From the NCBI GenBank assembly GCA_049890115.1, contig JBMHCC010000002.1, positions 4,789 through 68,788 of the forward strand: a DNA stretch of 64,000 nucleotides. Reading direction: 5' to 3'. The translations under genes were made by a program, and so were the position numbers. The notes under the pieces are model-generated. The model saw only the letters and a list, made by a program, of their open reading frames with translations, did not search any database and was not told where the DNA came from. The stretch's first letter is position 1. Each line of letters opens with the position of its first letter. The DNA comes from Candidatus Puniceispirillaceae bacterium (lineage in GTDB: Bacteria; Pseudomonadota; Alphaproteobacteria; Puniceispirillales; Puniceispirillaceae). Shown one piece after another: positions 3,620 through 60,749 of the stretch.

Positions 3620-3828
3620 CGTCTGTTGGGAGAGAGCATAGCCATAAGGCTGTGCCGCCGAAGGAGCAAAGCCTCAGGAATCTCTCAGGCAAAAGAACCA
3701 CAGAGGATAGACATTCTGGAGAGTGGCTGGCAGTCCAGCCCACCGACGGGGATAGTTTTAATAGAGCATCAGCTAGCTTGTCTGATGTGCTGATAAAACA
3801 AAACTCTCAGGTCCCATGACAGATGAGG
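3620..3828 (+). promoter_or_regulatory. Tandem glycine riboswitch (two aptamers) in the 5' leader of the DadA-like gene
   Basis: Aptamer 1 reads GGGAGAG..GCAUAGCC-AUAA-GGCUGUGC..CGCCGAAGGAGCAA..CUCUCAGGCAAAAGAACCACAGA. Aptamer 2 reads CUGGAGAG-UGGCUGG-CAGU-CCAGCC-CACCGACGGGGAUA..CUCUCAGGUCCCAUGACAGAUG. These match the conserved GGAGAG / CCGAAGG(A/G)GCAA / CUCAGGCAAAAGGAC cores of glycine aptamers. P1 pairings TCTGT/ACAGA and CAT(T)CTG/CAGATG are visible. Confidence 0.85.
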
Positions 3829-46656: not shown

Positions 46657-46753
46657 TCACGCAAAGCGGCATATATCAGCGAGCTATGCCACTATTTATA
46701 ATTACATTCTGCTCATTCTTTAATGTTGCCCATACTTTAGTTCTGCCCATTCT

Positions 46754-47704
46754 TTAGTTCTGTAAGGCTTCCCACATTTGCCTATCACGTTCTGCTGTCC
46801 AAATGCGCGGTGTGTCAATTCCAGATGCTTCATCAAAGGCACGTGCCACATTGAAGGGCAGGCAATGTTCATAAATAGCATAGCTTGAGAATTTCGGGTC
46901 ACAAGCCTCACGCACAGCGTCAAAGGCATCTTTTAGATTGCCGCCTCTGGCAGCAATTTTGGCAGCTGGCTGATAGGTCGATGTCACAAAATCTCTGGTA
47001 TTTTCAATCGCATCATTGACCATTTTTTTGCCAATAAGGGCATCACCACGCCCTGGGGCAATCGCATCAACATCAAAGGTTTTAATGGCATCCAATGTGC
47101 CGCCCCAATCATTGAAATGCCCATCACCGCAATAGCAGGCAGAATGATACTCAACAATATCACCTGTAAACATGACATTTTGATCTGGCACATGAATGAC
47201 AATATCACCAGCAGTATGAGCCCTGCCAAGATGACGCAAATCAACACGGCGATTACCCAAATAAACAGTCATATTGTCTGAAAAGGTAGTGGTTGGCCAG
47301 GTCAAGCCAGGGATAGATTCATGGCCTTCAAATAGGCGCGGAAAGCGGCCAAATTCACTATCCCAATCTTCTTTGCCGCGCTCAACTACCATAGAGCGAG
47401 CCTTATCCGACATGATAATTTGCGATGCATCAAAGGCAGAGGCACCAAGCACACGAACCGCATGATAATGTGTTAGCACTAGATGGCTGATAGGCTTGTC
47501 AGTGACTTGTCTGACACAATCAATGACTTTTTGTGCCAGACGTGGTGTGGCTTGTGCTTCGATAATCATGACGCTGTCATCACCGATAATCACACCTGAA
47601 TTTGGGTCACCTTCAGCTGTGAACGCATAAAGGCCATCACCAATTTCAGTAAAGCTGATTGTCTTTTCGCTGAGATCACCTTGTGATGCGAATGATTTTG
47701 TCAT
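46754..47704 (-). CDS. Metallo-beta-lactamase-fold (MBL-fold) protein with an atypical metal motif
   Basis: 316 aa. MBL-fold layout, but motif 2 reads THYHAVR instead of HxHxDH. Later AHTAGD and FTGD motifs are present. Confidence 0.7.
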   Translation of the reverse strand: MTKSFASQGDLSEKTISFTEIGDGLYAFTAEGDPNSGVIIGDDSVMIIEAQATPRLAQKVIDCVRQVTDKPISHLVLTHYHAVRVLGASAFDASQIIMSDKARSMVVERGKEDWDSEFGRFPRLFEGHESIPGLTWPTTTFSDNMTVYLGNRRVDLRHLGRAHTAGDIVIHVPDQNVMFTGDIVEYHSACYCGDGHFNDWGGTLDAIKTFDVDAIAPGRGDALIGKKMVNDAIENTRDFVTSTYQPAAKIAARGGNLKDAFDAVREACDPKFSSYAIYEHCLPFNVARAFDEASGIDTPRIWTAERDRQMWEALQN

Positions 47705-47716
47705 TTTCGGTTTCCT

Positions 47717-48958
47717 TTATCTTTTGACTGCTGGCAATAAGGCACCAGAACAGCTGCCAAATCCTATCTGATAGCCATCACCTTCTGCCCAGCCCTCTAG
47801 CGTGATGATATCATGATCTTCAATAAATGACCGCTCACAATTTGGGCTGATGGTAATAGGCTCTTTGCCACCCCAAGATAGCTCAAGCAAGCTGCCACGA
47901 TTTTGTCTCTCAGGGCCTGATATTGTCCCAGATCCTATCAGGTCACCTGTGCGCATGGGACAGCCAGAGCTAGCATGATGGGCAAGTTGTTGGGCTGAGG
48001 AATAATACATTTCGCTATAATTAGTGCGGGTGATTTCAGCCTCATCACCGTCTTTGCTTTGCAGGCTAACTGACAGGTGAATATCATAGAGCATAGGCCC
48101 TGTATCTTTGATGTGATCAAGCAATGGTTCAATGCGTTCTGGTGTCATTACACGGAACGGCTCTAACGCTGCTCTTGTGACAATCCAGGGTGAAATGCTT
48201 GTCGCTGTTGCTTTGGCTTGAAAGGGACCTAGCGGTTGATATTCCCATGCTTGAATATCTCTGGCAGACCAATCATTGAGCAAAACATAGCCAAAAATCA
48301 TATCATCTGCTTCATCAACACTGACAGGCCCTGTGCTTGATTTGCCAACTAAGGCGCCCATTTCAAGTTCAAAATCAAAGCGATTTGATGGCGCAAAAAC
48401 AGGCTTATCAGCTGTTGGTGGCTTTAGCTGACCATAGGGGCGGGTGATAGGCGTGCCTGATATCATCACAGATGAGGCTCTGCCATTATAGCCGATGGGG
48501 ATATGCAGCCAATTTGGTGGCAAGGCATTTTCTGCCCCTCTGAACATTGTGCCAACATTGGTTGCATGATGGCGGCCAGCGTAAAAATCGGTGTACTCAG
48601 AAATCTGGCATGGCAGATGCATGGTGGCATCAGTTTGCTTGACCATCAGATGAGACAGCTTTTCAGCATCTGCACCATCTTGTAACAATGCAATGATATG
48701 ATTTCGAAATGCCTGCCAGATAGATTGATCAGCTGCCATCAGCTTGTTCCAATAAGGCACATCACAATAAGGCCCGCCTGTGATATCTATCAGCCCTTCT
48801 GTCTCAGCAGTGCGGCAATCAAAAATCATATCACCAATGGCAATACCGCATGATGGCTCATGCGTATCTGATGAAAACACACCATAAGGCAAGTTATTTA
48901 AGGGGAAGGGACAGTCAGGCAGATTAGCTGAGGCAAGCCAGCTTTTTTGTAACGGCAT
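47717..48958 (-). CDS. fahA: Fumarylacetoacetase
   Basis: 413 aa. FAH N-terminal domain (FGIAIGD) and catalytic core (GYVLLNDWSARDIQAWEYQPLGPF, GDLIGSGTISG). Confidence 0.92.
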   Translation of the reverse strand: MPLQKSWLASANLPDCPFPLNNLPYGVFSSDTHEPSCGIAIGDMIFDCRTAETEGLIDITGGPYCDVPYWNKLMAADQSIWQAFRNHIIALLQDGADAEKLSHLMVKQTDATMHLPCQISEYTDFYAGRHHATNVGTMFRGAENALPPNWLHIPIGYNGRASSVMISGTPITRPYGQLKPPTADKPVFAPSNRFDFELEMGALVGKSSTGPVSVDEADDMIFGYVLLNDWSARDIQAWEYQPLGPFQAKATATSISPWIVTRAALEPFRVMTPERIEPLLDHIKDTGPMLYDIHLSVSLQSKDGDEAEITRTNYSEMYYSSAQQLAHHASSGCPMRTGDLIGSGTISGPERQNRGSLLELSWGGKEPITISPNCERSFIEDHDIITLEGWAEGDGYQIGFGSCSGALLPAVKR

Positions 48959-48969
48959 TTTTTTGTCTC

Positions 48970-50298
48970 TTATTTTTTCGTGTTAAAATTCTTCGGCAAA
49001 TCCTGCCAGCAATCAACATAGTCATCTTGCAGAGGTGCTTGGTTGGCGGCAAAATCTGTGAGGTGCTGGGGAAAGCGTGTTTCAAACATAAATGACATCG
49101 TATCGGACAATTTATGTGGTGCAAGCTCTGCATTACTTGCTTTTTCAAAGGCATCCTTATCAGGACCATGTGGCAACATCATATTATGAAGTGATAAACC
49201 GCCAGGCACAAAGCCTGTTAATTTGGCATCATATTGGCCATGAATATTACCCATTAATTCTGACATGACATTTTTATGATACCAAGGGGGGCGGAAGGTG
49301 TCTTCAGCAACCATCCATCTATCACGGAATAGCACAAAATCAATATTCGCTGTGCCTTCTGTTCCTGATGGGGCTGTTAGGACTGTGAAAATAGATGGGT
49401 CTGGATGATCAAATAGCACCGCACCAACAGGGCAGAAATAACGCAAATCATATTTCACAGGCACATAATTGCCGTGCCATGCCACAACATCAAGCGGACT
49501 TTGGTCAATTTTGGATTTATGAAATTGCCCACACCATTTTATGATTAGCTCTGATGGCGTTTCACGATCTTCAAATGTTGCCACAGGTGTTTTGAAATCA
49601 CGCGCATTCGCAAGGCAATTCGCACCAATAGGACCGCGATAAGGCAAGGTGAATTTCTGACCATAATTCTCACAGATAAACCCTCTTGCTGGACCGTCTG
49701 TAACCTCAACACGATAGACCAATCCGCGCGGGATAATGGCAATTTCCTGAGGCGCAATATCAAGAATGCCTAGCTCTGTATGAAAGCGTAAACTGCCTTC
49801 TTGCGGAACAATTAGCAATTCTGAATCAGCTGAATAAAAATAGCTATCTTCCATGCTTTTTGTCACAAGATAAATATGAGCTGCCATGCCAGTTTGCGTG
49901 TTCACATCACCTGCTGTTGTCATGGTGTGGATGCCACCTACCCAATCTGTATCATCGGTGCTATGGGGTACAGGGTCCCAGCGATATTGACCAAGGCTGA
50001 TGATATCAGGGTCAATCAGAGGTGCTGATTTCCAATTTGGCACCGCTATTTTTTCAAATCGCCCAACATGTTTCACAGATGGTCTGATGCGATACACCCA
50101 TGTTCTTTCATTCTCTGCAACAGGTGCGGTAAAAGGTGTGCCAGATAATTGTTCACCATAAAGACCATAGGCGCATTTTTGGGGGCTATTCATGCCAACT
50201 GGTAATGCACCTTCCAAGGCTTCTGTCTCAAAATGATTGCCAAAACCAGATTGATAACCAGCATGGCCATGCTGTGCTGTGATAAGAGTGCGTGCCAT
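48970..50298 (-). CDS. hmgA: Homogentisate 1,2-dioxygenase
   Basis: 442 aa. [15 protein letters not shown]-terminus and [16 protein letters not shown] motif are typical of HmgA. Confidence 0.95.
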
Positions 50299-50401
50299 AG
50301 CTATATGACCTTTTTGTTATTCATAGAGTTTGACAGATTATTAGTTGAAAATGTAACTATCAAGCATCAGATGATAGAAAAATGATAATGATTGTCAAAA
50401 A

Positions 50402-50827
50402 ATGGTCTTTAATAGTGAGCAATTTTTACCCTATTTATTAAACAGAGCTGCTGAACATGCCAGCAGGTCATTTCAATCTGTTTATAAGTCACGTTATGGG
50501 ATGTTGCGCACCGAATGGCGGGTATTATTTCATTTAGGGGTTTATGAACATCTAACCGCCAGTCAAATTTGCGAGATGGCAGGCCTGCATAAAACCAAGG
50601 TCAGCCGTGCTGTGGCAGCCTTGCAAGAAAAGCGCCTGATAACAAAGCGCATAGATGAAAATGACAGACGATTTGCCCCATTAATACTGACCGCCAAGGG
50701 GAAGACTGTCTTTGCTGATTTATCGCAGATGGCAGAAAAGATGCATCATGAATTAATGGCGGATTTCACCGAAGAAGAACAAGCCATTCTTTTAAAATGT
50801 CTCCATCAGTTGCGTGATGATAAATAA
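50402..50827 (+). CDS. MarR-family transcriptional regulator (divergent from hmgA)
   Basis: 141 aa. Winged-HTH region LTASQICEMAGLHKTKVSRAVAALQEKRLI..DRR. Confidence 0.85.
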   Translation: MVFNSEQFLPYLLNRAAEHASRSFQSVYKSRYGMLRTEWRVLFHLGVYEHLTASQICEMAGLHKTKVSRAVAALQEKRLITKRIDENDRRFAPLILTAKGKTVFADLSQMAEKMHHELMADFTEEEQAILLKCLHQLRDDK

Positions 50828-50850: not shown

Positions 50851-52041
50851 TTAAGTTTTGTTTTGATGCACATTATTGGCAACTGGCAGACGCAATAACA
50901 GCGCAAATTGCAATAATGCCATCACCACAAAACCAGCAATGATAGGCAAAAATAAGCCATCATAAAGACCATAGAAAACGCTGCCTAAAAAAGGACCAAG
51001 AGCCATGCCAAAGCCGCGTGGGATCGTGATAAGACCTTTGGCTCTGCCATAGACATTGGCACTGAAATATAAATTGGTCACAAAGCCGAACATAATGGTG
51101 ATGATGCCATTGCCAATGCCGTATAGGATCATTGAAATAACGGCCAGAGCCGGATGCGGTATCATCGCAAGCAAGATGCCGCAAATGATAAGGCAAAAGG
51201 CGATAATACCAGTTATTCTGGCATCAATCTTATGGGCAAAACGCATTTCTATGACACGGCCAACCACTTGAAAAGGACCAAATAGGCTAGCTAGGATCAC
51301 GGCCAATGTCATATTGCCAAGAGAGGAAGAAAACCAGCTGATCCATAATAGGGTGACAGCTGAGAACGCCATATAGTAAATGGCGTTGGAGCCAGCAATT
51401 AACAGTAATGCGTTCTTTTCAATTTTGCTTAACAGGCCAAAGCTGAAATCTGTTTGCGTGGCAAGGCGGGCATGAAGCGGCTGAACGGAACCTGATAAAT
51501 ATAAAGCAATGCTGCCAAGACTTGCTAGGATAGCAGCTGCTGAAAGACAGGCTGTGATGAGGCCAAAATGGCTCAAAATAGGGCTGAAAATAAGCCAGAC
51601 CACTGTGCTGGCAACACCGCCATAAAAACTGATGACCGATATTAAATGGCGTGATCTTCTTTCATCTAGCTGCACCGCAATCGAAAATGCCACCTCATAA
51701 GTTGCTAAAGAAAAGCTGATGCCGATAATGCCAAGACATAAACATACCCACCAAAAAGACGGCACTATCCATAACGCACCAATGCCTATGCTACCAAGTA
51801 ACAGCCCTGTCCCCAAAACACGCAAGCCGCCAATCCTGTCAACAAATTGCCCGATGAGATAGGATAATATCGCCTGAATAAATAATAATGCGCTTATCGC
51901 TTTTAAAATTGTATCAGGTGAAACAGCCACATGTTGGGCAAGCGGCTCTTTTAAAATCGCAAAGACATAATATAACAGCCCATAGCTGAATATTTGGGTC
52001 AGTCCGAGGAAATGAATCGCTTTGGGAGAGGCTTTTTGCAT
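50851..52041 (-). CDS. MFS transporter (12 TM)
   Basis: 396 aa, hydrophobic throughout, with an MFS-like loop motif (GQFVDRIGGLRV). 37 nt downstream of the OM barrel gene. Confidence 0.8.
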   Translation of the reverse strand: MQKASPKAIHFLGLTQIFSYGLLYYVFAILKEPLAQHVAVSPDTILKAISALLFIQAILSYLIGQFVDRIGGLRVLGTGLLLGSIGIGALWIVPSFWWVCLCLGIIGISFSLATYEVAFSIAVQLDERRSRHLISVISFYGGVASTVVWLIFSPILSHFGLITACLSAAAILASLGSIALYLSGSVQPLHARLATQTDFSFGLLSKIEKNALLLIAGSNAIYYMAFSAVTLLWISWFSSSLGNMTLAVILASLFGPFQVVGRVIEMRFAHKIDARITGIIAFCLIICGILLAMIPHPALAVISMILYGIGNGIITIMFGFVTNLYFSANVYGRAKGLITIPRGFGMALGPFLGSVFYGLYDGLFLPIIAGFVVMALLQFALLLRLPVANNVHQNKT

Positions 52042-52078
52042 GTGGCAATCCTATGCCATCATGCCAGCGAAAGCGATA

Positions 52079-53266
52079 TTAAAAGCTATAACTCAGACTA
52101 ATTTCAGCATATTCTGCTTTTTCAAGCGCGCTATTATGGGTGTCTTTGGCAAGGCCAGTTGGCACAGAGGCTGCAGCACGAATGACAAGCCCATCTGATA
52201 GGCGTCTTTCAGCACTTAGCGAGGCTGATGTTGAGTGAAAGTGCAAATCACGACCAATAGTCATCAGATAGCTTGTATCATCCACATCATTCATCGTCAG
52301 ACGCACACCTGCAAAAACATCACGTTGAAAGCCATGATGGCTGTGCTTGCCTCTGCTATCATAGGCAAATTCACCAATGATGCCAGCATCAGCAGAGCTA
52401 TCAAAGACAGAGTAAAGCGTATATTCTAGCCCGCCTGTTGCCCCATAATAATCTTTAATAATCGTATTATTATCAGGCTGTCCTGTCCGATGTATCAGCT
52501 CAGCTTTGATAAGCCAGTCACCAGCAATATGTTGAATATCTGTGCCTGCTTGGGTGATTTTATGATAGGTGGGCGTCATCTGCATATCAGCGCCAACCGC
52601 CAAGCTTGGCTCTCTGCCTGTGCCATCAAAATAGGATAGGCCGATATCGGTATCGCCAACATAGCCTTCCCAACGAAGCGCCGCACTAAGGCAGTTTTTA
52701 CAACTATCCTCATCATATAAATTACGGCTATCAGCCACGGTCAAAGGCAGGTTTTCACGGCTTGATCGAAACGGATAACGATTTGGCACAAAGCGCGGCA
52801 TCATCAAGATTGTCAGCGCACCAGGCCCAACATCACCTGTGATGGTTGCCATCGGCATACCGCGCTTTTGTCCATGTTGCAGGCCAGCACGATAATCTTT
52901 GCTATTGATGATATCGCTAGGGTTAAAGACATCTGTCTTGCCCCAAAATACGATATCACTGCCAATCAAAAAGCTGTAATCACCGATGGTGGTGCGATAA
53001 TGACTATCCTGCCAGTCAATCTCAGCCTGATTGCCGCCAATCGCATTGATATGAGGGCGCAATGAAATACTGCTATCATCATGATAGATATCTAGCGATG
53101 GTTCAAAACGCAAAGCTGTGGTTGAACGTTGTTGATGAGCAGCAGGTGCCTGTTTGTTATAATGTGTTATCCCAGCTTCAATCTTGCCATATTGTTCACT
53201 TTCAAAGGCATTGGCAGTCGATAATAGAAGCCACAAACAAAATGCTGCATAACAGGCAATCCTCAT
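52079..53266 (-). CDS. Putative outer-membrane beta-barrel protein, family unknown
   Basis: Signal peptide (LLLSTANA/FE), alternating amphipathic strand pattern, and a C-terminal SLSYSF with terminal Phe. ATGA overlap with the upstream pump gene. Confidence 0.65.
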   Translation of the reverse strand: MRIACYAAFCLWLLLSTANAFESEQYGKIEAGITHYNKQAPAAHQQRSTTALRFEPSLDIYHDDSSISLRPHINAIGGNQAEIDWQDSHYRTTIGDYSFLIGSDIVFWGKTDVFNPSDIINSKDYRAGLQHGQKRGMPMATITGDVGPGALTILMMPRFVPNRYPFRSSRENLPLTVADSRNLYDEDSCKNCLSAALRWEGYVGDTDIGLSYFDGTGREPSLAVGADMQMTPTYHKITQAGTDIQHIAGDWLIKAELIHRTGQPDNNTIIKDYYGATGGLEYTLYSVFDSSADAGIIGEFAYDSRGKHSHHGFQRDVFAGVRLTMNDVDDTSYLMTIGRDLHFHSTSASLSAERRLSDGLVIRAAASVPTGLAKDTHNSALEKAEYAEISLSYSF

Positions 53267-56200
53267 TTACGTGCTGCCTTTGGCAAAGATTGTGGGCTGA
53301 AATCCTTTTCGCTCAAACCAACCTGAAACTGATAATTATCCCATTGTAATTTTGTTGATTTACCTGTTTGCAGATTCATCATTTCCATCACGCCAGCACG
53401 CCAAAATTTATCTAGATATTGTTGATATCCTGAAAAAGAGAGTGTTTTTTCAAGATCGCCTCTGCGATTATAATATTCGATTTTATGAACACGATATTCA
53501 GCATTATCAATATATGAGACGCGCTTTGAATAACCTGATTTTTTATTTTTAGGCTGACTTTCAACAACAAAACATGTCAGGCCATCAGCATTCGGGCATG
53601 GCTCATCACGCAGCCAAATATGAGTGTTATCTTCAACTTCTTCAGAGCCTAAATCTTCATAGCTAAATTCAGAGCTAACAAATTTGCCAGTGCGATTGGA
53701 TGATGAAATGCGTTTCACACGCTTCACAGCAGGCAAGAATAGCCATTGATCATCATCATTTGGTTCTAGGTTGGAATGCGTTAACATAGAAGTGCCTCTA
53801 ATATCGCGCGGTTTGGTAAAGATGATGATGCTTTTATCACCCATCTCACCAGCAGGCTGTTCCAGCGTCCGGCTAGTAAAGACACGGACAGATTCTTTGC
53901 CTGCTTTATTTTTCAATACCATTTGCCCTGAGACTTCAACATCACCAAAACCAGCATCGCGTGCGCTTTGCTCCTGTGCAATGGCAAGGCCTTTTGCCTC
54001 ATCAGCCAATGCCTTTGGGCCATAGATGCCACCTGCAGCTATCATCACCGCACCGATAATCATCGCTGTTGTTGCTGTTTTTAACGAAGAGATTTTATCT
54101 TTCATCTTATCCATCCAAATTAATAAGGGGGGCAAAAGTAGGAAATCAACCACCAGCGCAAATGCCAGCGTGATCGCTGTCAGACGTGCCAGGTCACGGT
54201 TCACGGCAAAACCAGACTGGCCTAATATGGCAAAACCAACCACAAGACCAACAGATGTAACGGTTAATGCCATACCAACTGATTTAAAGGCATAGCGAAC
54301 AGAATCTTCACCGCTGAGACCTTTTTTGCGGCCATTGGCATATTTCAGCATGAAGTGCACCGTATCATCGACCACAATACCAAGCGTCATTGCAACCACA
54401 ACAGATACAGCCAAAGTGATTGTGCCCATCATATAACCCCACAGGCCAAAAGCCATCAAAGCAGGGATCAAATTCGGCACAAGCGAAATCAGGCCAAGCT
54501 GAACATTGCGCAATACAAGTAAGATAATCGCTGAAATACCAACCAAGGCAAGCAGAGTGCCTTGCAGCATAGCTGGCACATCTCTGGCTGATATCATGGT
54601 ATAGACGATTGATTGCCCTGTGACAGGCGTTTTCAGCTCTGGTGCATTTTCATCAAACCAGCTCTGTACCCTGCCATCAAGGCTTAGCATATCAGCAGTT
54701 GTCACATTTGGCACATAGGCTGTAATTCTGATGGCTGAACGGTCAACATTAATCTGATCTGTTAGATCCATGCCATAGCCAAGTGAGAGTTCATATAAGA
54801 ACAAAAATTGCGAGGCTTCATCCTCACTAGCTGGCAGACGATAATAGCTAGTATCATCATTATTCATATTCTGATTAAGCCGCTTTAGCACATCTGTGAT
54901 AGAGCGCACATTACTCACCTCTGGCTGGGCACGAAGATAGGCTGTCAGCTCATTTGCCTTTGCCAGAAAATCAACATCATTAATGCCGCTTTCAATGCCT
55001 GTTTCCAGCGAATATTCCAGCACATTGAGACCGCCTAGATTATTTTCATAATAATCAGATGCCTGGCGAAATTCATAACGTTCGTCAAAATAGCGGATGA
55101 AATCATCTTCTAATTTGATTTGCGTCACACCAGCACCAAAGGCAATGACTAATAGCGGAATGCCAATTAAAAGCTGGCGTTGTCTGCGTATGACGAACTC
55201 ACCAAGTGCTACCATTATTTTATCAGTCAATGCTTGGCCTTTTGCCTTGCCAGCTGGCAGTAAACAAATCAAAGCTGGCAGCACAGCTAGGGTGAAAATC
55301 CAAACAGCTATCATGCCTGCTGCCACCATATTACCAAGCTGGCGGAAGGGCGGAGAAATTGAAAAATTCAAAGATAAAAAGCCAAGTGCCGTTGTCAGAC
55401 AGGCGACGGTGATGGCCAAGCCATGTTCAGAGATAGCTGTTCTGGCCCATATTTGTCTGTCTGATGTTGTGGTGCGTAATTGACGTGCGGCAGCTAGGAT
55501 GTGAACTGTGCTTGCAATGGTAAGTGTGATGATCATCAAAGGGGCAATGGCTGTCGCAGAATTAAGTGGTATTTTTGTCCAGCCTAGCGCGCCAAGAGAT
55601 ACCAAGGCTGCCAGAATAGCGATGAATAAAATTGATGCAACGCCAGATGCTGAACGCAGCAATAAGCCAACAACCAATAGCATCGCAATCAACATGGCAG
55701 GTGTTAGTGTCATGCCATCTTGCTGGCTTGAATTGGAAAATTGCGCGCCGATTGCAATACTGCCTGTCGAAGAAAAATCAATATCAGGATATTTTTCCCC
55801 AAAGGCATCTAGCATCGGTTCTACTTCTGCCATGACCTCTGGAATTTCATTTGCCAAATCAAGGCCTGGCAAGCGGAAAATCACGGTGACAGGTGATACA
55901 GATGTGTTGCTATCAATAAGCTGATTGACAATCTCAACACGTGATAAAGCGATTTCCTTAGCACGCTGTGCTTGCGCTTCAGTCACTGAATAGGGGTCAA
56001 CCACCAGATCTTCGACAATCATGAAATCGCCATCTGCATAGCTGTTTTGAAACCGTGTAATGGAATTGACCAGCCTAACATAGGGCAATGTCCACGCTTC
56101 CTCAGTTAGCTCATCAATCGCTTGTAATGTGCGTGGGGTGAAAATCTCACCATCTTTGGGGATGATCAGAATATTCAAGGTATCATCCTTGGCATATTCT

Positions 56201-56400
56201 GCTTCAAATCTATCCAGCAATATCTTGTCAGGATTTTTGTCATCCATAAAGACCCTGCCATCAGTATCAAGGGTCAGATTTGGAACACCAGCAATGACAA
56301 CACAAGCAGCCAGAATGAAAAAAATCGCTGCGCTATAACGCCATCTTACGATAAAATCAGCATAGCGCTCAAAAAATGATTTTTGTGTTGTTTGTGACAT
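53263..56400 (-). CDS. RND-superfamily (MMPL/HpnN-like predicted exporter) membrane protein fused through a 13th TM helix to a C-terminal LolA-like (outer-membrane lipoprotein-sorting-like) domain
   Basis: Two repeats of 1 TM + ~190-aa loop + 5 TM, with a GIVVDDTVHF motif in the second bundle. Then helix TATTAMIIGAVMIAAGGIYGP and a ~245-aa domain carrying QWLFLPAVKRVKRISSSNRTGKFVSSEFSYEDL. Start placed at ATG 56400 (GGAGGG RBS); the track ORF extends to 56481. Confidence 0.8.
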   Translation of the reverse strand: MSQTTQKSFFERYADFIVRWRYSAAIFFILAACVVIAGVPNLTLDTDGRVFMDDKNPDKILLDRFEAEYAKDDTLNILIIPKDGEIFTPRTLQAIDELTEEAWTLPYVRLVNSITRFQNSYADGDFMIVEDLVVDPYSVTEAQAQRAKEIALSRVEIVNQLIDSNTSVSPVTVIFRLPGLDLANEIPEVMAEVEPMLDAFGEKYPDIDFSSTGSIAIGAQFSNSSQQDGMTLTPAMLIAMLLVVGLLLRSASGVASILFIAILAALVSLGALGWTKIPLNSATAIAPLMIITLTIASTVHILAAARQLRTTTSDRQIWARTAISEHGLAITVACLTTALGFLSLNFSISPPFRQLGNMVAAGMIAVWIFTLAVLPALICLLPAGKAKGQALTDKIMVALGEFVIRRQRQLLIGIPLLVIAFGAGVTQIKLEDDFIRYFDERYEFRQASDYYENNLGGLNVLEYSLETGIESGINDVDFLAKANELTAYLRAQPEVSNVRSITDVLKRLNQNMNNDDTSYYRLPASEDEASQFLFLYELSLGYGMDLTDQINVDRSAIRITAYVPNVTTADMLSLDGRVQSWFDENAPELKTPVTGQSIVYTMISARDVPAMLQGTLLALVGISAIILLVLRNVQLGLISLVPNLIPALMAFGLWGYMMGTITLAVSVVVAMTLGIVVDDTVHFMLKYANGRKKGLSGEDSVRYAFKSVGMALTVTSVGLVVGFAILGQSGFAVNRDLARLTAITLAFALVVDFLLLPPLLIWMDKMKDKISSLKTATTAMIIGAVMIAAGGIYGPKALADEAKGLAIAQEQSARDAGFGDVEVSGQMVLKNKAGKESVRVFTSRTLEQPAGEMGDKSIIIFTKPRDIRGTSMLTHSNLEPNDDDQWLFLPAVKRVKRISSSNRTGKFVSSEFSYEDLGSEEVEDNTHIWLRDEPCPNADGLTCFVVESQPKNKKSGYSKRVSYIDNAEYRVHKIEYYNRRGDLEKTLSFSGYQQYLDKFWRAGVMEMMNLQTGKSTKLQWDNYQFQVGLSEKDFSPQSLPKAARK

Positions 56401-56580
56401 GCCAGCCCTCCAAAATTCTCTGAAATGATAATGCAGACCATTTCCCCGATTGATAACAGAGCCTGATATCACATTATTCATTATAACTAATATTATAGAG
56501 ATGCCTTATATACTAACAAAGCAATGCTATGGATGCATCAGCTAATCATAGTCTTTATGTTTTGTGATTGTGATGATGTG

Positions 56581-58203
56581 TTATGGCTGTGTTTGCAGAG
56601 ACTCTATCTGGCTTGTTAGCTCTTCGATAATAGGAGCATCATCAGGTAGTTTTTCCAGCAAATTATTCCAGAAATTAATAGCTGTTTTATTGTCGCCTGC
56701 CAGCTTGGCAAAATGCCCTGCAAAAAATAGATATTCCAGTCTTTCGGGATCTAGGCTAGCAATGCGTTCCAGGATACGTGCTGCTTCAGGCAGAAAATCA
56801 GCACCGCGGCCTGATGCTAATATCTGCTCAAGCGGGGCAAGCTGGCTCTTGATAGATTGGCTGTCAGCTTGTGCAGCACCGATAAGCGCTTTGATAAAAC
56901 CTACTTCATCACCAAGAACTTGCTTGGCACGGATAAGGCGTTGCCAGCCTGCCAGATCATCTGGATTATCTTTAAGCCTATCTTCTAATTGGCCAATCAT
57001 GGCAGCGATCATCTCATCTTGCTCATCTTGTGATAGGTCAGATGCATCAGCGATAATGCCTTCATCAAGAGCCGGCATATCAGCAATAGCAATCCCAGCC
57101 TTATCAGCAGCAAATTGAATGTTCTGGCGCACTAATGACACCCATGGTGCATCAGCATTTGATACTGCCAAGACCTGTTGCCATATAGTGATGGCTTGTT
57201 CAAATTGCTCATCCTGATAAGCAGCTAGGCCAAGCAAATATAATGCGCGTGGCTCTTGCGGATCTTGCGTTAGAATATCTTGGATGATGGTGCGCGCTGG
57301 CAAGGTGACAAGACCATCTGCTTGTCGTGCGAGCGCCTCTGCCATCATGGAGCGGATAGCTAGATTATTATCAGTTAGCGCTAACGCTTTTGTCAGTGCC
57401 TGTTGTTCAATCTCAAATTCATTCGCAGAAGCAGCTGCCATTGCCAATGATAATTGTGCTTCAACAGAAGAAGGATTATCTGATGCTGCCTGAATGGCTT
57501 GTGTTAATCGTGCTTTATCTTGGGTTTGTTGGCGTGCTATCTCAGCTGCTGCATTCTCTTTTTCAACCTGCCTTTGTGCAAGCGGCTGTGCTGTTAAATC
57601 AGGGCTGCCAAGCTGGCTGTAAATCACAAAGCTGACAGCGATAATAGCAGCAACACCACCAACCAGATAAAGCTGACTTATCTGAGCTGTCTTTTTGCTA
57701 ACAAATTGTGCTTCATCATTATTGTCATCATCTGTGATGGCAGGAATTTGTGATGCTGTCTCATCTGATAGCCCGCTATCATCATCATTATCATCATTAT
57801 TTTGACGCCGATAGATAACTAACAAAATAAGCCCGAAAGCTATGATAATGAAAGGCGTTGCCCATAGCGCATAGGTTTGTGTTGTGACCGGCGGATTGAG
57901 CAAAATATAGTCACCATAACGCTGGCGCAGAGCGTCTAAAATAGCATCATCATCATCGCCAGCGACGAGCAATTCACGTACCTGACGGCGCAAATCAACC
58001 GCTAGATCAGCATCTGAATCATCAATCGATTGGTTCTGACAAACAAGGCATCGCAACTGGGCAGATAAATCACGCGCCCTTTGTTCCAGCTGTGGGTCTG
58101 ATAATTGTTCTTCTGGACTGATCGCTGCAACAGGTGTGCTAATCGCTAGCGCAAGGCTAATAATGATACACCATCTGGCGATAATGTTCCCTTTAACCAT
58201 CAT
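56581..58203 (-). CDS. ccmH: Cytochrome c maturation protein, fused CcmH (LRCxxC thiol-disulfide module) and CcmI-like TPR domain
   Basis: Signal/TM segment, LRCLVCQNQSIDDS motif and a TM helix. An acidic linker (NNDDNDDDSG..DDDNNDE) and a second TM helix follow, then ~330 aa of TPR-like repeats. Confidence 0.85.
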   Translation of the reverse strand: MMVKGNIIARWCIIISLALAISTPVAAISPEEQLSDPQLEQRARDLSAQLRCLVCQNQSIDDSDADLAVDLRRQVRELLVAGDDDDAILDALRQRYGDYILLNPPVTTQTYALWATPFIIIAFGLILLVIYRRQNNDDNDDDSGLSDETASQIPAITDDDNNDEAQFVSKKTAQISQLYLVGGVAAIIAVSFVIYSQLGSPDLTAQPLAQRQVEKENAAAEIARQQTQDKARLTQAIQAASDNPSSVEAQLSLAMAAASANEFEIEQQALTKALALTDNNLAIRSMMAEALARQADGLVTLPARTIIQDILTQDPQEPRALYLLGLAAYQDEQFEQAITIWQQVLAVSNADAPWVSLVRQNIQFAADKAGIAIADMPALDEGIIADASDLSQDEQDEMIAAMIGQLEDRLKDNPDDLAGWQRLIRAKQVLGDEVGFIKALIGAAQADSQSIKSQLAPLEQILASGRGADFLPEAARILERIASLDPERLEYLFFAGHFAKLAGDNKTAINFWNNLLEKLPDDAPIIEELTSQIESLQTQP

Positions 58204-58754
58204 TTCAAATCCTGCAAAGCTGGCCTGATGATATCTGTTAACACCTCTTTAAAAATGGGGCCAGCATGCCGCACAATGATTGTGCCGTCACCATCAATGA
58301 CAAAGGTTTCAGGAACGCCATAAACACCCCATTCAATCGCTGTTCGGCCATCATAATCCATCCACAGAGCACTGTAGGGATTGCCAAATTGCTCTAGAAA
58401 CTGGCTGGTATCATCCAGCTTATCCTTGTAGGCAATGCCAATGATTGGCACATCTTCTGCTAATAGCGCAAGCGCAGGTGCTTCAGCTTTGCATGGCGCA
58501 CACCAGCTTGCCATAAAATTGACCAATATCGGCTGACCTTGGAATGCCTCAATGGTTTTGGCTAAGTCTGGCTGATAGGCAGTTGCTGGCAGAGCAGGTG
58601 CCTTTTGGCCAATCAAAACCGATGGCAGCTGTTCTTGATTGCGTGTGCCAGATAAATTGCCATAAAGCCCAATAGCTGAAATGATAGCGAGGCCTAAAAA
58701 TGCGATTATGGGCAAAATAAAGGGCAGTTTTTTCAAAAGTGATTTTTGTGCCAT
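58200..58754 (-). CDS. ccmG: Periplasmic thiol:disulfide oxidoreductase CcmG/DsbE
   Basis: 184 aa. N-terminal anchor, WCAPC active site and a GVYGVPETF motif. ATGA overlap with ccmH. Confidence 0.92.
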   Translation of the reverse strand: MAQKSLLKKLPFILPIIAFLGLAIISAIGLYGNLSGTRNQEQLPSVLIGQKAPALPATAYQPDLAKTIEAFQGQPILVNFMASWCAPCKAEAPALALLAEDVPIIGIAYKDKLDDTSQFLEQFGNPYSALWMDYDGRTAIEWGVYGVPETFVIDGDGTIIVRHAGPIFKEVLTDIIRPALQDLK

Positions 58755-58769
58755 GATGATAAAGCCTGT

Positions 58770-60749
58770 CTATGCTGACCTTAGGCCAGTCTTTGCTGTT
58801 GGCGCAGATTGCCTGCCAGCAAATGCCAATATGCCGCCAAATGCCATAATAACAGCACCACCCCAAATCCAGCTTACAAGCGGTTTGTGATATAACCGAA
58901 GCGCATAACCAGTTTCATCATTGCCATCACCAAGCACAGCATAATCATCACCTGAAAAGCGCGGGCGAATAGCGGCTTCTGTTGTGGTTTGCCGTTCTGC
59001 TGGATAAAATCTCTTTTCTGGTGTCATTAGGGCAATCACGTTGCCATCTTGGGTTTCAAGCTGCAGCACAGCTGTTTGTGTTGTGTAATTTGGCCCTTGT
59101 CTGTTTTCCACACCAAGCAAGCGATATTGCCTATCATCAAGCATGATAACCTCACCTGGTTTAACACGCACAGTTGCTTCAGTGCGTGCCAGCCCATCAC
59201 CAAGTGCCCCTGCCAGAAAAACAGCCATGCCGATATGACCTAACCAAATGCCCCAGATAGGCAAGCCAAGCTGTTTCAGGCGGCTTGTTAATTTGGCAGG
59301 CTGATGAAATTTTAGCCGTGATTGTAATTCAGATGCCAGCGCACAAATAAGCCATCCTAATAGGCCGAGCCCTGCCAATGCTGATGCCGATAACCAGGAT
59401 GATGTGATAAGCAATCCTGCTAGCATAGCTAATGCCGCGCCAGCACCTGCCATCATCAGAACAAAACGGCTATGGCGCATCACCCCTTTTTGCCAAACCA
59501 GCACTGGTGCCACCCCCATGCCGATTATCGCAAATGCCATAACAGGGTTAAAGGTCGCATCAAAATAAGGTGGGCCAACGGTAATACGTGCGCCTGTGAA
59601 TAATTCCAGACCAAGGGGATAGAATGTGCCAAGCAGCACAATCGCAGTCGCAATTAATAAAATAAAATTATTGATGACAAGGCCGGTATCACGGCTAATT
59701 AGCTGGCTGTCATTCTGGCTGACTAATTGCGGGCCGCGCCATGCAAATAATAATAATGGGATGCCGATTGAGATAACTAAAATAGCGAGGATGAAGACAC
59801 CGCGTGCTGGATCAGAGGCAAAGCTGTGAACAGATGTCAGCAAGCCTGATCGCACAATAAAGGTGCCAAGCAGCGATAGTGAAAAGGCGATAATCGCAAG
59901 CAAGATAGTCCAGCTTTTTAACTGCCCTCTTTTGGCCACCACCAGCACAGAATGAATTAAAGCTGTTGCAGCAAGCCATGGCATTAATGAGGCATTTTCG
60001 ACAGGATCCCAGAACCACCATCCGCCCCAACCAAGCTCATAATACGCCCACCAGCTGCCAAGAGCGATGCCAAGGGTCAGCGCACACCAAGCCGAAAGTG
60101 CCCAAGGACGCATCCAGATGCCCCATTCTTTGGTTACGCGCCCATCTATCAAGCCAGCAACCGCAAATGAAAATGCCATAGACAGGCCAACATAGCCTAA
60201 ATACAACATAGGCGGATGAAGCGCGAGACCGACATCTTGCAGCACAGGGTTGAGACCATTTCCTTCAAGAGGGGCAATAGCAAGGCGTTCAAATGGGTTT
60301 GATGTTAACAGGCTAAACAGCAAGAATGACAAAGAAATGCTGGCCTGGACTGCCAGAATAAGGACAGCCAAGCGGGCTGGCAGCTTGTGGTTTGTCATGG
60401 CAAAAACAGCGCCAAATACCATCAAAATCACAATCCATAATAAGAGCGAGCCTTCATGATTGCCCCAACTGCCAGATATTTTGTAAATGAGCGGCTTTAG
60501 CGAATGTGAATGCTGTGCCACAAGTGCTACTGAAAAATCAGATGTCACAAATGAATATAGCAGCGTGCCAAAGGCGATGAATATTAGCGCAGCAGCTCCT
60601 ATCTGCAGGGCGTTCGCTATGCCCAATAGGCTGGCAAATGGCTGTCCCGTAAGACGCAATAGCGGCAGGCTCATCTGACAGGCAGATGCCACAAGCGCGA
60701 TGATACAGGCAAAATGGCCAATTTCGGCAGGCGCAAAAATACCGGTCAT
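58770..60749 (-). CDS. ccmF: Cytochrome c-type biogenesis heme lyase subunit CcmF
   Basis: 659 aa polytopic protein with the WWD domain WGGWWFWDPVEN. Confidence 0.95.
   Translation of the reverse strand: MTGIFAPAEIGHFACIIALVASACQMSLPLLRLTGQPFASLLGIANALQIGAAALIFIAFGTLLYSFVTSDFSVALVAQHSHSLKPLIYKISGSWGNHEGSLLLWIVILMVFGAVFAMTNHKLPARLAVLILAVQASISLSFLLFSLLTSNPFERLAIAPLEGNGLNPVLQDVGLALHPPMLYLGYVGLSMAFSFAVAGLIDGRVTKEWGIWMRPWALSAWCALTLGIALGSWWAYYELGWGGWWFWDPVENASLMPWLAATALIHSVLVVAKRGQLKSWTILLAIIAFSLSLLGTFIVRSGLLTSVHSFASDPARGVFILAILVISIGIPLLLFAWRGPQLVSQNDSQLISRDTGLVINNFILLIATAIVLLGTFYPLGLELFTGARITVGPPYFDATFNPVMAFAIIGMGVAPVLVWQKGVMRHSRFVLMMAGAGAALAMLAGLLITSSWLSASALAGLGLLGWLICALASELQSRLKFHQPAKLTSRLKQLGLPIWGIWLGHIGMAVFLAGALGDGLARTEATVRVKPGEVIMLDDRQYRLLGVENRQGPNYTTQTAVLQLETQDGNVIALMTPEKRFYPAERQTTTEAAIRPRFSGDDYAVLGDGNDETGYALRLYHKPLVSWIWGGAVIMAFGGILAFAGRQSAPTAKTGLRSA

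What the first reader, a model, noticed from the sequence alone, without database searches (positions are those of the whole stretch)
50851..56481. Candidate trans-envelope export module: RND/MMPL-type pump fused to a LolA-like periplasmic domain, with an orphan OM beta-barrel and an MFS protein
Three consecutive minus-strand genes are tightly linked, by an ATGA overlap at 53263-53266 and a 37-nt gap before the MFS gene.

Gene 1 has the 2 x (1+5 TM plus large periplasmic loop) layout of RND-superfamily 'predicted exporters' (MMPL/HpnN-like). It continues into an extra helix and a ~245-aa soluble domain. Its motif QWLFLPAVKRVKRISSSNRTGKFVSSEFSYEDL is one I recognise from the 'outer-membrane lipoprotein-sorting protein'/LolA-like family. 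From memory, that family is normally a separate secreted protein encoded next to such pumps.

Gene 2 has a signal peptide and ends in ...SLSYSF, as BAM-assembled barrels do, but I cannot assign it to a named family.

No membrane-fusion protein or TolC-type gene is present. The logic (inner-membrane proton-driven pump, lipid-carrier-fold periplasmic domain, OM barrel) therefore resembles lipid, lipoprotein or hopanoid trafficking machines (Lol, Mla, HpnN, MmpL) rather than drug efflux. The substrate is unknown. The co-transcribed MFS protein could be an accessory flippase or importer, but that is speculation.
Basis: partly seen in the sequence, partly recalled or inferred. Interest (0 to 1): 0.75.

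Follow-up and report, generated by a model that had tools for sequence, protein, structure and literature searches.

The report
Pump–carrier–barrel hydrophobic export module

Summary
The three minus-strand ORFs, the ATGA overlap and the 37-nt gap are real. Gene 1 is an HAE3/MMPL-type RND pump with a LolA_like (PF17131) domain after a 13th helix; its true start is probably M28 (56400). Gene 2 is a confident ~18-strand outer-membrane barrel from a large family (about 4,700 clusters at 50% identity) with no Pfam, NCBIfam or PDB match.

Gene 2 is not an orphan. In 63 of 80 sampled genomes from several phyla the order is pump, LolA-like, barrel, usually as three genes behind a TetR regulator. The fusion is derived and arose at least twice.

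The 13th helix is the carrier's retained signal peptide. Its core varies, but the -1 Ala is invariant (38/38) and -3 is Ala in 36/38. The fused protein is therefore probably cleaved to release a soluble carrier.

The MFS gene is a lineage-specific insertion: 0 of 80 loci have it, and syntenic relatives lack it.

Most likely function: proton-driven export of very hydrophobic molecules by hand-off from pump to carrier to barrel. The closest systems are AmeABCD, the DUF1302/DUF1329/BNR/RND clusters, aryl-polyene ApeLMN, and the same architecture induced on C28 alkane in Thalassolituus. The substrate is unknown.

The parts
56492..56519 (-). Promoter-like site (TTGTTA, 16 nt, TATAAT) upstream of g1; would give a 5' leader of roughly 85 nt before the M28 start
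   Evidence: Consensus scan, 10/12 match; sequence read. Consensus match only; function not shown.
54118..56400 (-). g1, pump portion (residues 28-788 in ORF numbering): HAE3/MMPL-type RND transporter, 12 TM helices in 2x(1+5), two large periplasmic loops, invariant DDTVH in TM10
   Evidence: Pfam MMPL, Patched, SecD_SecF_C and sterol-sensing hits. NCBIfam best hit is HAE3 TIGR00921, 162 bits, below the cut-off. Hydropathy and K/R counts. Start at M28 with a GGAGGG SD. Foldseek nearest folds are MmpL3/4/5, HpnN and NPC1 (moderate model). TM1-12 column identity 0.70-0.96.
54004..54117 (-). g1, junction (residues 789-826): K-rich n-region, 13th hydrophobic helix, and c-region ending A-L-A. This is the retained signal peptide of the LolA-like protein, with a predicted signal peptidase I site after A826
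   Evidence: Aligns with the signal peptides of stand-alone LolA-like proteins, directly before the shared mature N-terminus (E)xxEKGLxIA. Across 38 fused homologues the helix has 0.41 column identity; -1 Ala is 38/38, -3 is Ala 36/38 plus Ser and Val, and -2 is variable. pLDDT is below 50 here in the full-length model.
53263..54003 (-). g1, LolA-like periplasmic carrier domain (residues 827-1072 plus stop); PF17131 (LolA_like / TP_0789-like)
   Evidence: Pfam PF17131 E=4.8e-58, plus a partial DUF1329 hit. PDB 3bk5 E=1.4e-67, 9tp6 (P. gingivalis LolA3) 7e-33, 4z48, 3buu. Foldseek 3bk5 TMt 0.77, 44% identity.
52079..53266 (-). g2: outer-membrane beta-barrel of about 18 strands with a signal peptide (ANA|FE) and a C-terminal ..SLSYSF; conserved third partner of the pump and carrier; member of a large unannotated family
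   Evidence: No Pfam, NCBIfam or PDB sequence hit. AF2 pLDDT 91.9, pTM 0.85. Foldseek gives generic hits to AlgE, OccK/OprD, MOMP, Wzi and porins, TM 0.5-0.57. Found directly downstream of the LolA-like gene in 63/80 loci. The family has 4,668 representatives at E<=1e-3.
50851..52041 (-). g3: MFS_1 transporter, probably co-transcribed here (37-nt gap, AGGA SD). It is a lineage-specific insertion and not part of the conserved module
   Evidence: Pfam MFS_1. ArsK-like at only 133 bits against a 400 cut-off. 0/80 loci carry a homologue. Absent at the same position in syntenic relatives L081-L082. Relatives in other SAR116 genomes sit in unrelated contexts.

Best explanation
Genes g1 and g2 encode a self-contained trans-envelope conveyor for very hydrophobic or amphiphilic molecules.

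**Proposed mechanism**
1. A proton-driven HAE3/MMPL-type RND pump takes the cargo from the inner membrane.
2. It passes the cargo to a LolA-like periplasmic carrier with a hydrophobic cavity.
3. The carrier delivers it to a dedicated ~18-strand outer-membrane barrel, which inserts or releases it.

In most bacteria these are three translationally coupled genes, usually behind a TetR regulator. In this SAR116 (Ca. Puniceispirillaceae) lineage the pump and carrier genes have fused. The carrier's signal peptide survives as a 13th helix with an intact signal-peptidase I site. The polyprotein is therefore most likely cleaved after A826, releasing a soluble carrier in 1:1 ratio with the pump.

The MFS gene g3 is a recent insertion that rides on the same transcript and is not part of the machine.

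**Shown:** the domain identities, topology, barrel fold, conserved gene order, derived and repeated fusion, signal-peptide-like conservation, and non-linkage of the MFS.

**Inferred:** the direction (export), the hand-off mechanism, the cleavage and the cargo class. The cargo itself is unknown; long-chain lipids or hydrocarbon-like compounds are the best guess.
For: **Domains and folds**
- The pump's nearest solved folds are lipid and sterol RNDs (MmpL3/4/5, HpnN, NPC1). An HAE1 pump first appears at rank 43.

**Conserved linkage**
- At least 581 species-representative genomes encode a g2 relative.
- 63/80 loci show pump, then LolA-like, then barrel on one strand.
- Median gaps are -4 nt (pump to LolA-like) and about 11 nt (LolA-like to barrel).
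- TetR lies upstream in 30/48 separate-gene loci and 7/9 fused loci.
- No recurrent flanking function, MFP or OMF was found.

**Fusion and junction**
- An NJ tree places the fused forms in one alphaproteobacterial clade, plus an independent fusion in Marinicella.
- All 120 listed homologues, from many independent assemblies, are fused.
- At the junction, 12/12 fused proteins obey the -3/-1 rule before the shared mature N-terminus.
- TM13 column identity is 0.41, against 0.70-0.96 for TM1-12. The -1 Ala is 38/38.

**MFS**
- It is unlinked to the module.

**Literature on related systems**
- Thalassolituus oleivorans TOL_3187 (two MMPL domains plus a LolA-like domain) rose 42-fold on n-C28. The adjacent no-domain predicted porin TOL_3188 was expressed only on n-C28 (PMC6304351).
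- Deleting AmeABCD lowers monoterpene tolerance and raises Nile Red accumulation (PMC6394551).
- DUF1302/DUF1329/BNR/RND genes are cofit in several species (10.1101/072470).
- The ApeL/ApeM/ApeN model covers aryl-polyene lipid export (PMC8253772).
- On a Sulfitobacter plasmid, a divergent copy follows a fully reducing type I PKS and includes galE.
Against: - There is no direct functional evidence for any member of this exact family. The Thalassolituus identification rests on architecture, and I could not compare sequences.
- The pump scores below NCBIfam's HAE3 cut-off (162 against 351.9 bits).
- The direction of transport is inferred from what RND pumps generally do. The Thalassolituus authors favoured uptake.
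- Cleavage is inferred from conservation only. Small residues at -3/-1 could persist for other reasons, and an uncleaved signal-anchor tether would also place the domain in the periplasm.
- The SAR116 sub-clade lacks the TetR gene, so regulation here is unknown.
- The full-length model is only moderate (pLDDT 67) and gives no docking information.
- Flanking genes give no substrate clue in the close relatives.
Confidence: 0.6

Rival explanations
1. An uptake system for very insoluble hydrophobic nutrients such as long-chain alkanes or waxy esters. The barrel admits the substrate, the LolA-like protein ferries it across the periplasm, and the RND protein receives or inserts it at the inner membrane.
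For: In T. oleivorans the same architecture is induced 42-fold, or expressed exclusively, during growth on n-C28, and the authors proposed alkane passage through the porin. DUF1302/DUF1329/BNR/RND mutants of P. putida lose fitness on Tween 20 and butyl stearate used as carbon sources. DUF1329-type genes lie in several hydrocarbon and steroid catabolic islands.
Against: Characterised RND transporters move substrates outward, for example HpnN, the MmpLs, and AmeABCD with its Nile Red efflux (the general rule is established knowledge). The usual TetR partner is typical of efflux operons. No catabolic genes recur next to the module. Induction on C28 would equally fit export of a surfactant or lipid, or relief of membrane overload.
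Confidence: 0.15
2. A specialised lipoprotein-sorting or outer-membrane-protein biogenesis route, as the database name 'outer membrane lipoprotein-sorting protein' implies. The LolA-like domain would chaperone lipoproteins, or the barrel itself, to the outer membrane.
For: The domain belongs to the LolA superfamily. RefSeq and NCBI name it a lipoprotein-sorting protein. The T. oleivorans authors suggested the pump delivers the porin.
Against: The match is to PF17131, not the canonical LolA or LolB models. P. gingivalis LolA3, the 9TP6 homologue (E=7e-33), binds LolB only very weakly and lacks the LolA Arg and LolB Leu signatures. Deleting F. johnsoniae lolA3 does not affect gliding or type IX secretion. 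The partner is an RND pump rather than a LolCDE-type ABC extractor, and no LolB-like lipoprotein is linked. The barrel has its own Sec signal peptide and a BAM-type C-terminus.
Confidence: 0.07
3. A permanently tethered version. The 13th helix is an uncleaved signal-anchor that holds the LolA-like domain on the pump as a fixed periplasmic adaptor or bridge to the barrel. The overall export function is the same as in the best explanation, but without a diffusible carrier.
For: The fusion is stable across hundreds of SAR116-clade sequences and arose independently in Marinicella. This suggests close physical cooperation of pump and carrier. Topology places the domain outside either way.
Against: The helix is the least conserved TM (0.41 against 0.70-0.96), whereas -1 Ala is 38/38, -3 is Ala 36/38 and -2 is variable. 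That pattern is expected for a cleaved signal peptide, not a packed helix. The ancestral and majority state is a free secreted protein.
Confidence: 0.15
4. An ordinary multidrug or metal RND efflux pump that borrows MFP and TolC-type partners encoded elsewhere. The barrel would be an unrelated porin and the fusion an annotation or assembly artefact.
For: TetR-regulated RND operons are typical of drug efflux. AmeABCD affects dye accumulation.
Against: The best matches are HAE3, MMPL and HpnN rather than HAE1 or HME. ZneA matches at E=0.007 only, and AcrD appears at Foldseek rank 43. No MFP or OMF gene is found in or beside the module. The barrel is syntenic in 63/80 loci. All 120 listed homologues, from many independent assemblies, are fused.
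Confidence: 0.03

Closest known systems
Thalassolituus oleivorans MIL-1 TOL_3187 / TOL_3188 (Gregson et al. 2018, PMC6304351)
   Same: The described architecture is identical: one protein with two MMPL domains plus a LolA-like domain, followed immediately by a protein with no known domain predicted to be a porin. Both were strongly induced on n-C28 alkane. This is probably the same family, in a gammaproteobacterium.
   Different: Only proteomic induction is known, with no genetics or biochemistry. I could not obtain the sequences, so homology to g1/g2 is inferred from architecture. The authors' reading (the pump exports the porin; the porin imports alkane) differs from mine.
AmeABCD of Castellaniella defragrans and the DUF1302/DUF1329/BNR/RND clusters of Shewanella, Kangiella and Pseudomonas (PMC6394551; 10.1101/072470; 10.1101/2020.07.04.188060)
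   Same: Both combine an HAE3/COG1033 RND pump, a LolA-superfamily periplasmic protein and an outer-membrane barrel, with no MFP or TolC. Genetics point to handling of hydrophobic compounds: monoterpene tolerance, Nile Red, Tween 20. The g1 C-terminal domain gives a partial DUF1329 hit, and a few barrel relatives give weak DUF1302 hits.
   Different: There the barrel is DUF1302 (~600 aa) and the carrier DUF1329 (~450 aa), and a fourth BNR/Ycf48-like protein is present. Here the barrel is ~395 aa with no Pfam match, the carrier is PF17131 (~245 aa), and no BNR partner exists. This makes it a compact three-part relative, not a member.
Aryl-polyene export genes ApeL (LolA-like), ApeM (RND) and ApeN (LolB-like DUF3261) of E. 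coli (PMC8253772)
   Same: An RND transporter plus a LolA-like periplasmic chaperone is proposed to move a lipid to the outer membrane.
   Different: The outer-membrane component there is a LolB-like lipoprotein, not a barrel. Those genes are embedded in a biosynthetic cluster. The module here is free-standing in most genomes, though one divergent plasmid copy follows a PKS.
HpnN and MmpL3/4/5 lipid-exporting RND transporters
   Same: They share the MMPL/HAE-type fold and the 12-TM 2x(1+5) layout, and are the nearest solved structures. They export hopanoids, trehalose monomycolate and lipid siderophores.
   Different: Sequence similarity is weak (HpnN E=6.8e-6; equivalog scores far below the cut-offs). 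None has a LolA-like partner or fusion, or a dedicated porin-like barrel.
Lol pathway (LolCDE-LolA-LolB); LolA3 of Bacteroidota (9TP6)
   Same: The carrier fold is the same, as is the logic of extracting from the inner membrane, shielding in a soluble half-barrel and delivering to the outer membrane. LolA3-PG is a sequence homologue (E=7e-33).
   Different: The energiser is a PMF-driven RND, not an ABC transporter. The receiver is a barrel, not LolB. LolA3 binds LolB only very weakly and has no known function.
Borrelia BBJ23-29 cluster (PMC13078400)
   Same: An inner-membrane transporter, a LolA-like protein and an outer-membrane barrel are proposed to export a non-polar ligand.
   Different: That cluster uses a MacB-type ABC transporter and an Omp85-family barrel. 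It is computational only.
Polyproteins split at an internal signal peptide, such as Bradyrhizobium FbcH cytochrome b/c1 (own knowledge, not checked here)
   Same: A membrane protein is fused upstream of a periplasm-facing partner and separated by signal-peptidase cleavage at a retained signal sequence.
   Different: The proteins are unrelated. Cleavage of g1 is predicted, not shown.

Membership tests
RND superfamily, MMPL-type (PF03176) | Pfam MMPL match above the gathering score | tested here: met
   62.3 bits against a 20.5 cut-off, two stretches.
RND superfamily, MMPL-type (PF03176) | 12 TM helices as 2x(1+5) with two large periplasmic loops | tested here: met
   Hydropathy profile with loops of 211 and 183 residues; helices in the AF2 model.
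HAE3 family (TIGR00921, TC 2.A.6.7) | Score at or above NCBIfam's curated cut-off | tested here: not met
   It is the best-scoring subfamily, but at 162.1 bits against 351.9. The pump works like an HAE3 pump; strict membership is not shown.
HpnN hopanoid transporter (NF052374 / TIGR03480) | Equivalog score; hopanoid biosynthesis neighbourhood | tested here: not met
   41 and 70 bits against cut-offs of 1100 and 752. No hpn genes in the flanks.
LolA_like / TP_0789-like (PF17131) | Full-length Pfam match and homology to solved members | tested here: met
   196 bits, profile positions 3-183 of 184. 3bk5 E=1.4e-67. Foldseek TMt 0.77.
Canonical LolA/LolB lipoprotein sorting | Match to LolA or LolB models; linkage to LolCDE or LolB | tested here: not met
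   Only PF17131 and DUF1329 were reported at E<=0.01. The partner is an RND pump. No LolB-like gene recurs in the loci. Homologue LolA3-PG binds LolB only very weakly.
AmeABCD-type DUF1302/DUF1329/BNR/RND system | DUF1302 outer-membrane protein | tested here: not met
   g2 has no hit. Only 4/49 and 3/73 relatives give weak hits (best 5e-5), similar in number to the Wzi, PelB_C and porin hits. Remote homology remains open.
AmeABCD-type DUF1302/DUF1329/BNR/RND system | DUF1329 periplasmic protein | tested here: inconclusive
   56.9 bits, above the 23.1 cut-off. However, it covers only profile positions 265-367 of 368 and is outscored by PF17131.
AmeABCD-type DUF1302/DUF1329/BNR/RND system | BNR/COG4447 (Ycf48-like) fourth component | tested here: not met
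   Absent from the window module. It is also absent from the recurrent gene clusters of the 80 loci and from the 25 commonest flank families.
Tripartite HAE1-type efflux (AcrAB-TolC-like) | Adjacent membrane-fusion protein and TolC-type outer-membrane factor | tested here: not met
   None in the module or the flank census. An HAE1 pump appears only at Foldseek rank 43.
BAM-assembled outer-membrane beta-barrel | Sec signal peptide, closed beta-barrel, C-terminal aromatic residue | tested here: met
   ANA|FE site. AF2 barrel with pLDDT 91.9. Porin-like Foldseek hits at probability 1.00. Terminal F/W/Y in 49/49 and 71/73 relatives.
MFS (g3) | MFS_1 match; ArsK equivalog score | tested here: inconclusive
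   MFS_1 is met (79 bits against 33.4). ArsK is not met (133 against 400). The result is a generic MFS of unknown substrate.
TOL_3187/TOL_3188-type pair of T. oleivorans | Sequence homology of both proteins to g1 and g2 | not testable with these tools
Only the published architecture matches.

The most novel reading that the evidence does not exclude
Diderm bacteria possess a widespread soluble-carrier route for non-protein hydrophobic cargo, parallel to Lol and Lpt. An HAE3 RND pump loads a PF17131 LolA-like chaperone, which docks on a dedicated and so far unannotated ~18-strand barrel family. In the abundant marine SAR116 clade, pump and chaperone are made as one polyprotein split by signal peptidase, and the system has lost its TetR switch. 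There it might deal constitutively with long-chain hydrocarbons or waxy lipids, such as those released by phytoplankton.
Probability: 0.3. Interest if true: 0.8.

Novelty: new variant of a known kind. Interest (0 to 1): 0.6.

Why it matters
How Gram-negative bacteria move very hydrophobic molecules between their two membranes is solved for only a few cargoes: LPS, lipoproteins, some phospholipids and hopanoids.

This module offers a compact, three-part and genetically tractable candidate for another route.
It is near-universal among the sampled SAR116-clade relatives.
- Its outer-membrane component is a family of about 4,700 sequence clusters with no Pfam, NCBIfam or PDB representation. Databases currently call it 'hypothetical protein'.
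- Databases name the carrier 'lipoprotein-sorting protein', which is probably misleading.
- The natural fusion with a conserved cleavage site gives a direct test for pump-carrier coupling.
- The alkane-induced Thalassolituus pair and the PKS-linked Sulfitobacter copy give starting points for finding substrates relevant to hydrocarbon turnover and solvent tolerance.

Tried and rejected
1. **Rosetta-stone idea.** I tested whether the 500-740-aa members of the barrel family carry the LolA-like domain fused to the barrel. Rejected: the extensions that matched a Pfam family are AMIN or OmpA-type peptidoglycan-binding domains.
2. **Substrate clues from neighbours.** Pfam on the 140 nearest flanking genes of the module showed no recurrent function.
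3. **Barrel as a DUF1302 relative.** Only 7 of 122 relatives give weak hits, about as many as for other barrel families. A profile search against PDB sequences found nothing. Inconclusive.
5. **Literature.** TP0789 and SAR116 with RND or hydrocarbons gave nothing functional.
6. **MFS as accessory.** Rejected. The MFS_1_like genes that sit beside the barrel in four pump-less loci belong to a different MFS family from g3, by Pfam assignment.
7. **Full-length AF2 model.** It was only moderate (pLDDT 67). Coordinates are not exposed, so I could not examine the barrel lumen, lateral openings or carrier docking.
8. **Lipoprotein option for the junction.** No Cys follows the site, so it is a signal peptidase I type and not a lipobox.

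Full report
**1.

Three minus-strand ORFs lie at 53263-56481 (1072 aa), 52079-53266 (395 aa) and 50851-52041 (396 aa). The g1 stop and g2 start overlap as ATGA. g2 and g3 are 37 nt apart, with an AGGA Shine-Dalgarno before g3.

- **g1.** Pfam finds MMPL (PF03176) and related RND signatures. A full-length LolA_like domain (PF17131, E=4.8e-58) covers residues 882-1067, and there is a partial DUF1329 hit. The best NCBIfam subfamily is HAE3 (TIGR00921), at 162 bits against a 351.9 cut-off. The HpnN models score far lower.
- **g1 topology.** Hydropathy shows the 2x(1+5) RND layout plus a 13th helix. The short loops are K/R-rich and the two large loops are acidic. The N-terminus is therefore cytoplasmic and the C-terminal domain periplasmic.
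- **g1 C-terminal domain.** Residues 829-1065 match the crystal structure 3bk5 at E=1.4e-67 and P. gingivalis LolA3 (9tp6) at 7e-33. The LolA-like fold follows from homology.
- **g1 start.** The real start is almost certainly M28 (ATG at 56400). GGAGGG lies 6 nt upstream and the homologues begin there. A promoter-like site at 56519-56492 fits this.
- **g2.** It has no Pfam, NCBIfam or PDB sequence match.
- **g3.** It is a generic MFS_1 protein.

**2. Gene 2 is an outer-membrane barrel from a large unannotated family**

- With a 49-sequence alignment, AlphaFold2 gives a confident all-beta model (pLDDT 91.9, pTM 0.85).
- Foldseek against the PDB returns only generic porin-like barrels. The best TM-scores (0.55-0.57) are to 18-strand barrels: AlgE, OccK/OprD and chitoporin (MOMP scores 0.50-0.53 and Wzi 0.53). 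Identity is about 10%.
- The protein has a signal peptide (ANA|FE). Its C-terminal aromatic residue is conserved in 49/49 and 71/73 relatives.
- A profile search of 1.84 billion representative proteins finds 4,668 family members at E<=1e-3 and 2,740 at E<=1e-10.
- A profile search of PDB sequences finds none.
- Some longer members carry N-terminal AMIN or OmpA-type peptidoglycan-binding domains. This fits a periplasm-facing N-terminus.

**3. The barrel is the conserved third partner, not an orphan**

- In the 80 loci retrieved, 63 show pump, LolA-like and barrel on one strand in that order.
- Of these, 52 encode pump and LolA-like as separate genes and 11 as a fusion.
- Spacing is tight: the median pump-to-LolA-like gap is -4 nt and the LolA-like-to-barrel gap about 11 nt.
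- The loci come from Alpha- and Gammaproteobacteria, Nitrospira, Acidobacteriota, Gemmatimonadota and Ca. Moanabacter.
- A TetR-family gene (confirmed by Pfam) lies directly upstream in 30/48 separate-gene loci and 7/9 fused loci with enough flank. It is absent from the SAR116 sub-clade and from the window.
- Pfam on the 140 nearest flanking genes shows no recurrent function and no MFP or TolC. The unit is self-contained.

**4. The fusion is derived and its junction is a signal peptide**

- A neighbour-joining tree of pump domains puts the window, the SAR116 loci and other alphaproteobacterial fused forms in one clade. An independent fusion in Marinicella nests among separate-gene forms.
- All 120 listed g1 homologues (65-99% identity) are fused. 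They come from many independent assemblies, so this is not an artefact.
- Aligned with the N-termini of the stand-alone LolA-like proteins, the 13th helix corresponds to their signal peptide: a K/R-rich n-region, a hydrophobic core and a c-region. It sits immediately before the shared mature N-terminus (E)xxEKGLxIA.
- All 12 fused sequences obey the -3/-1 rule.
- Among 38 fused SAR116-clade proteins, TM1-TM12 have column identities of 0.70-0.96 and the 13th helix only 0.41. The -1 Ala is 38/38, the -3 residue is Ala in 36/38 (otherwise Ser or Val), and -2 is variable.
- That is the conservation pattern of a working signal-peptidase I site, not of a helix packed into the pump. I therefore infer that g1 is a polyprotein cleaved after A826. 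This is inference; no cleavage data exist.
- The ATGA-type overlap typical of the separate genes makes such fusions easy to arise.

**5. The MFS gene does not belong**

- None of the 80 loci has a g3 homologue.
- In the closest relatives (pump 87% and barrel 73% identical) the locus is syntenic with the window: pump, barrel, convergent MarR, hmgA, fumarylacetoacetase, MBL-fold protein and FAD monooxygenase. The barrel is followed directly by MarR, with no MFS.
- g3 is 100% identical to a protein of a Ca. Puniceispirillaceae MAG, which identifies the organism as SAR116. Its 40-50% relatives, including one in Ca. Puniceispirillum marinum, sit in unrelated contexts.
- g3 is probably co-transcribed here, as a passenger.
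- The MarR gene pairs with the divergent homogentisate operon rather than with the module.

**6. What it most likely does**

*Structural relatives.* The full-length model is only moderate (pLDDT 67). Its nearest solved structures are nevertheless the lipid and sterol RNDs: MmpL4/5, MmpL3, HpnN and NPC1-type. An HAE1 drug pump first appears at rank 43. The C-terminal domain hits 3bk5 at TM 0.77.

*Published evidence on related systems:*
- T. oleivorans TOL_3187 (two MMPL domains plus a LolA-like domain) and the adjacent no-domain predicted porin TOL_3188 are induced 42-fold, or expressed exclusively, on n-C28 alkane. This is the same architecture; sequence identity was not tested.
- AmeABCD (DUF1302 barrel, DUF1329 LolA-superfamily protein, BNR protein, HAE3 pump) is needed for monoterpene tolerance and reduces Nile Red accumulation.
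- The homologous four-gene sets are cofit in Shewanella, Kangiella and Pseudomonas, and matter on Tween 20 and butyl stearate.
- The aryl-polyene cluster uses an RND pump with LolA-like and LolB-like proteins in its proposed export model.
- On a Sulfitobacter plasmid, a divergent copy of the module (with galE inserted) directly follows a fully reducing type I PKS (KS-AT-DH-ER-KR-ACP).
- The PF17131 homologue LolA3 of P. gingivalis binds LolB only very weakly. The F. johnsoniae lolA3 mutant has no lipoprotein-related phenotype.

*Conclusion.* The best-supported mechanism is PMF-driven extraction of a very hydrophobic or amphiphilic molecule by the pump, transfer to the LolA-like carrier and delivery to the barrel. 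The usual TetR partner suggests ligand-induced expression. The cargo probably differs between lineages and is unknown for SAR116.

**7. Comparison with known systems, and novelty**

- The module works like AmeABCD and ApeLMN but is a member of neither.
- g2 does not match DUF1302. There are only sparse weak hits among relatives, as many as to other barrel families.
- The carrier is PF17131 rather than full-length DUF1329, and there is no BNR component.
- The outer-membrane part is a barrel, not a LolB-like lipoprotein.
- The pump is HAE3-like but below the curated cut-off.
- The architecture has been glimpsed once in proteomics (Thalassolituus). I found no description of it as a conserved system in the library searched, and RefSeq annotates the barrel as 'hypothetical protein'.
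- I rate it a new variant of a known kind. It is moderately to highly interesting because of its breadth, the unannotated barrel family and the testable polyprotein prediction.

**8. Limits**

- There are no functional data for this family.
- Direction, cargo, hand-off and cleavage are all inferred.
- The neighbour-joining tree is a simple distance tree.
- ORF calls in the loci used the first ATG, so the gap sizes are approximate.

Noticed in passing
window 3617-3823 (+): Tandem glycine riboswitch: two RF00504 aptamers at 55.6 and 40 bits, just upstream of the ORF at 3904-5133. An ordinary arrangement, presumably controlling a glycine-cleavage or transport gene.
   Followed up: no
L011 8620-11038; L053 8824-11173; L060 4965-7339; L070 8788-11146: In four Thiogranum-like gammaproteobacterial loci with no pump or LolA-like gene nearby, the barrel gene sits immediately downstream of an MFS_1_like (PF12832) transporter gene, overlapping it or less than 50 nt away. 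The barrel family may therefore pair with more than one class of inner-membrane transporter.
   Followed up: partly
proteins P0356, P0357, P0358, P0438 (AMIN) and P0374 (OmpA): Several 570-740-aa members of the barrel family carry N-terminal AMIN or OmpA-type peptidoglycan-binding domains; other extended members had no Pfam match. This suggests some barrels are anchored to the cell wall.
   Followed up: partly
L088 / L089 (Sulfitobacter dubius plasmid NZ_CP085145.1, record 134473-148329): A 2562-aa fully reducing type I PKS is followed on the same strand by an MMPL transporter, a LolA-like protein, galE and a divergent barrel relative (25% identity). It looks like a long-chain (glyco)lipid synthesis and export cluster.
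   Followed up: partly
L082 806-7697 (-): In the closest relative, the module is preceded by five consecutive genes of 406-493 aa. Four have no Pfam hit and one has only a weak DUF6844 hit. The window instead has cytochrome c maturation-like genes upstream (56581-61180), an identification made by eye from the translations.
   Followed up: no
window 45052-50827: Homogentisate-type aromatic catabolism cluster: FAD monooxygenase, MBL-fold protein, fumarylacetoacetase and homogentisate dioxygenase, with a divergent MarR regulator. It is syntenic next to the module in relatives L081/L082, and the MarR gene converges on the module's end.
   Followed up: partly
L040 11395-14618 (-): A second, more distant pump plus LolA-like pair (26% and 31% identity to g1) lies convergent to the barrel of the first module in one gammaproteobacterial MAG. 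Paralogous modules can coexist.
   Followed up: no
L087 (Pseudoalteromonas rhizosphaerae plasmid p1, NZ_CP118497.1): The module occurs on a 24-kb plasmid next to a gamma-mobile-trio recombinase (GmtY) and an integrase, with the barrel divergent from the pump and LolA-like genes. The module may be horizontally mobile.
   Followed up: no
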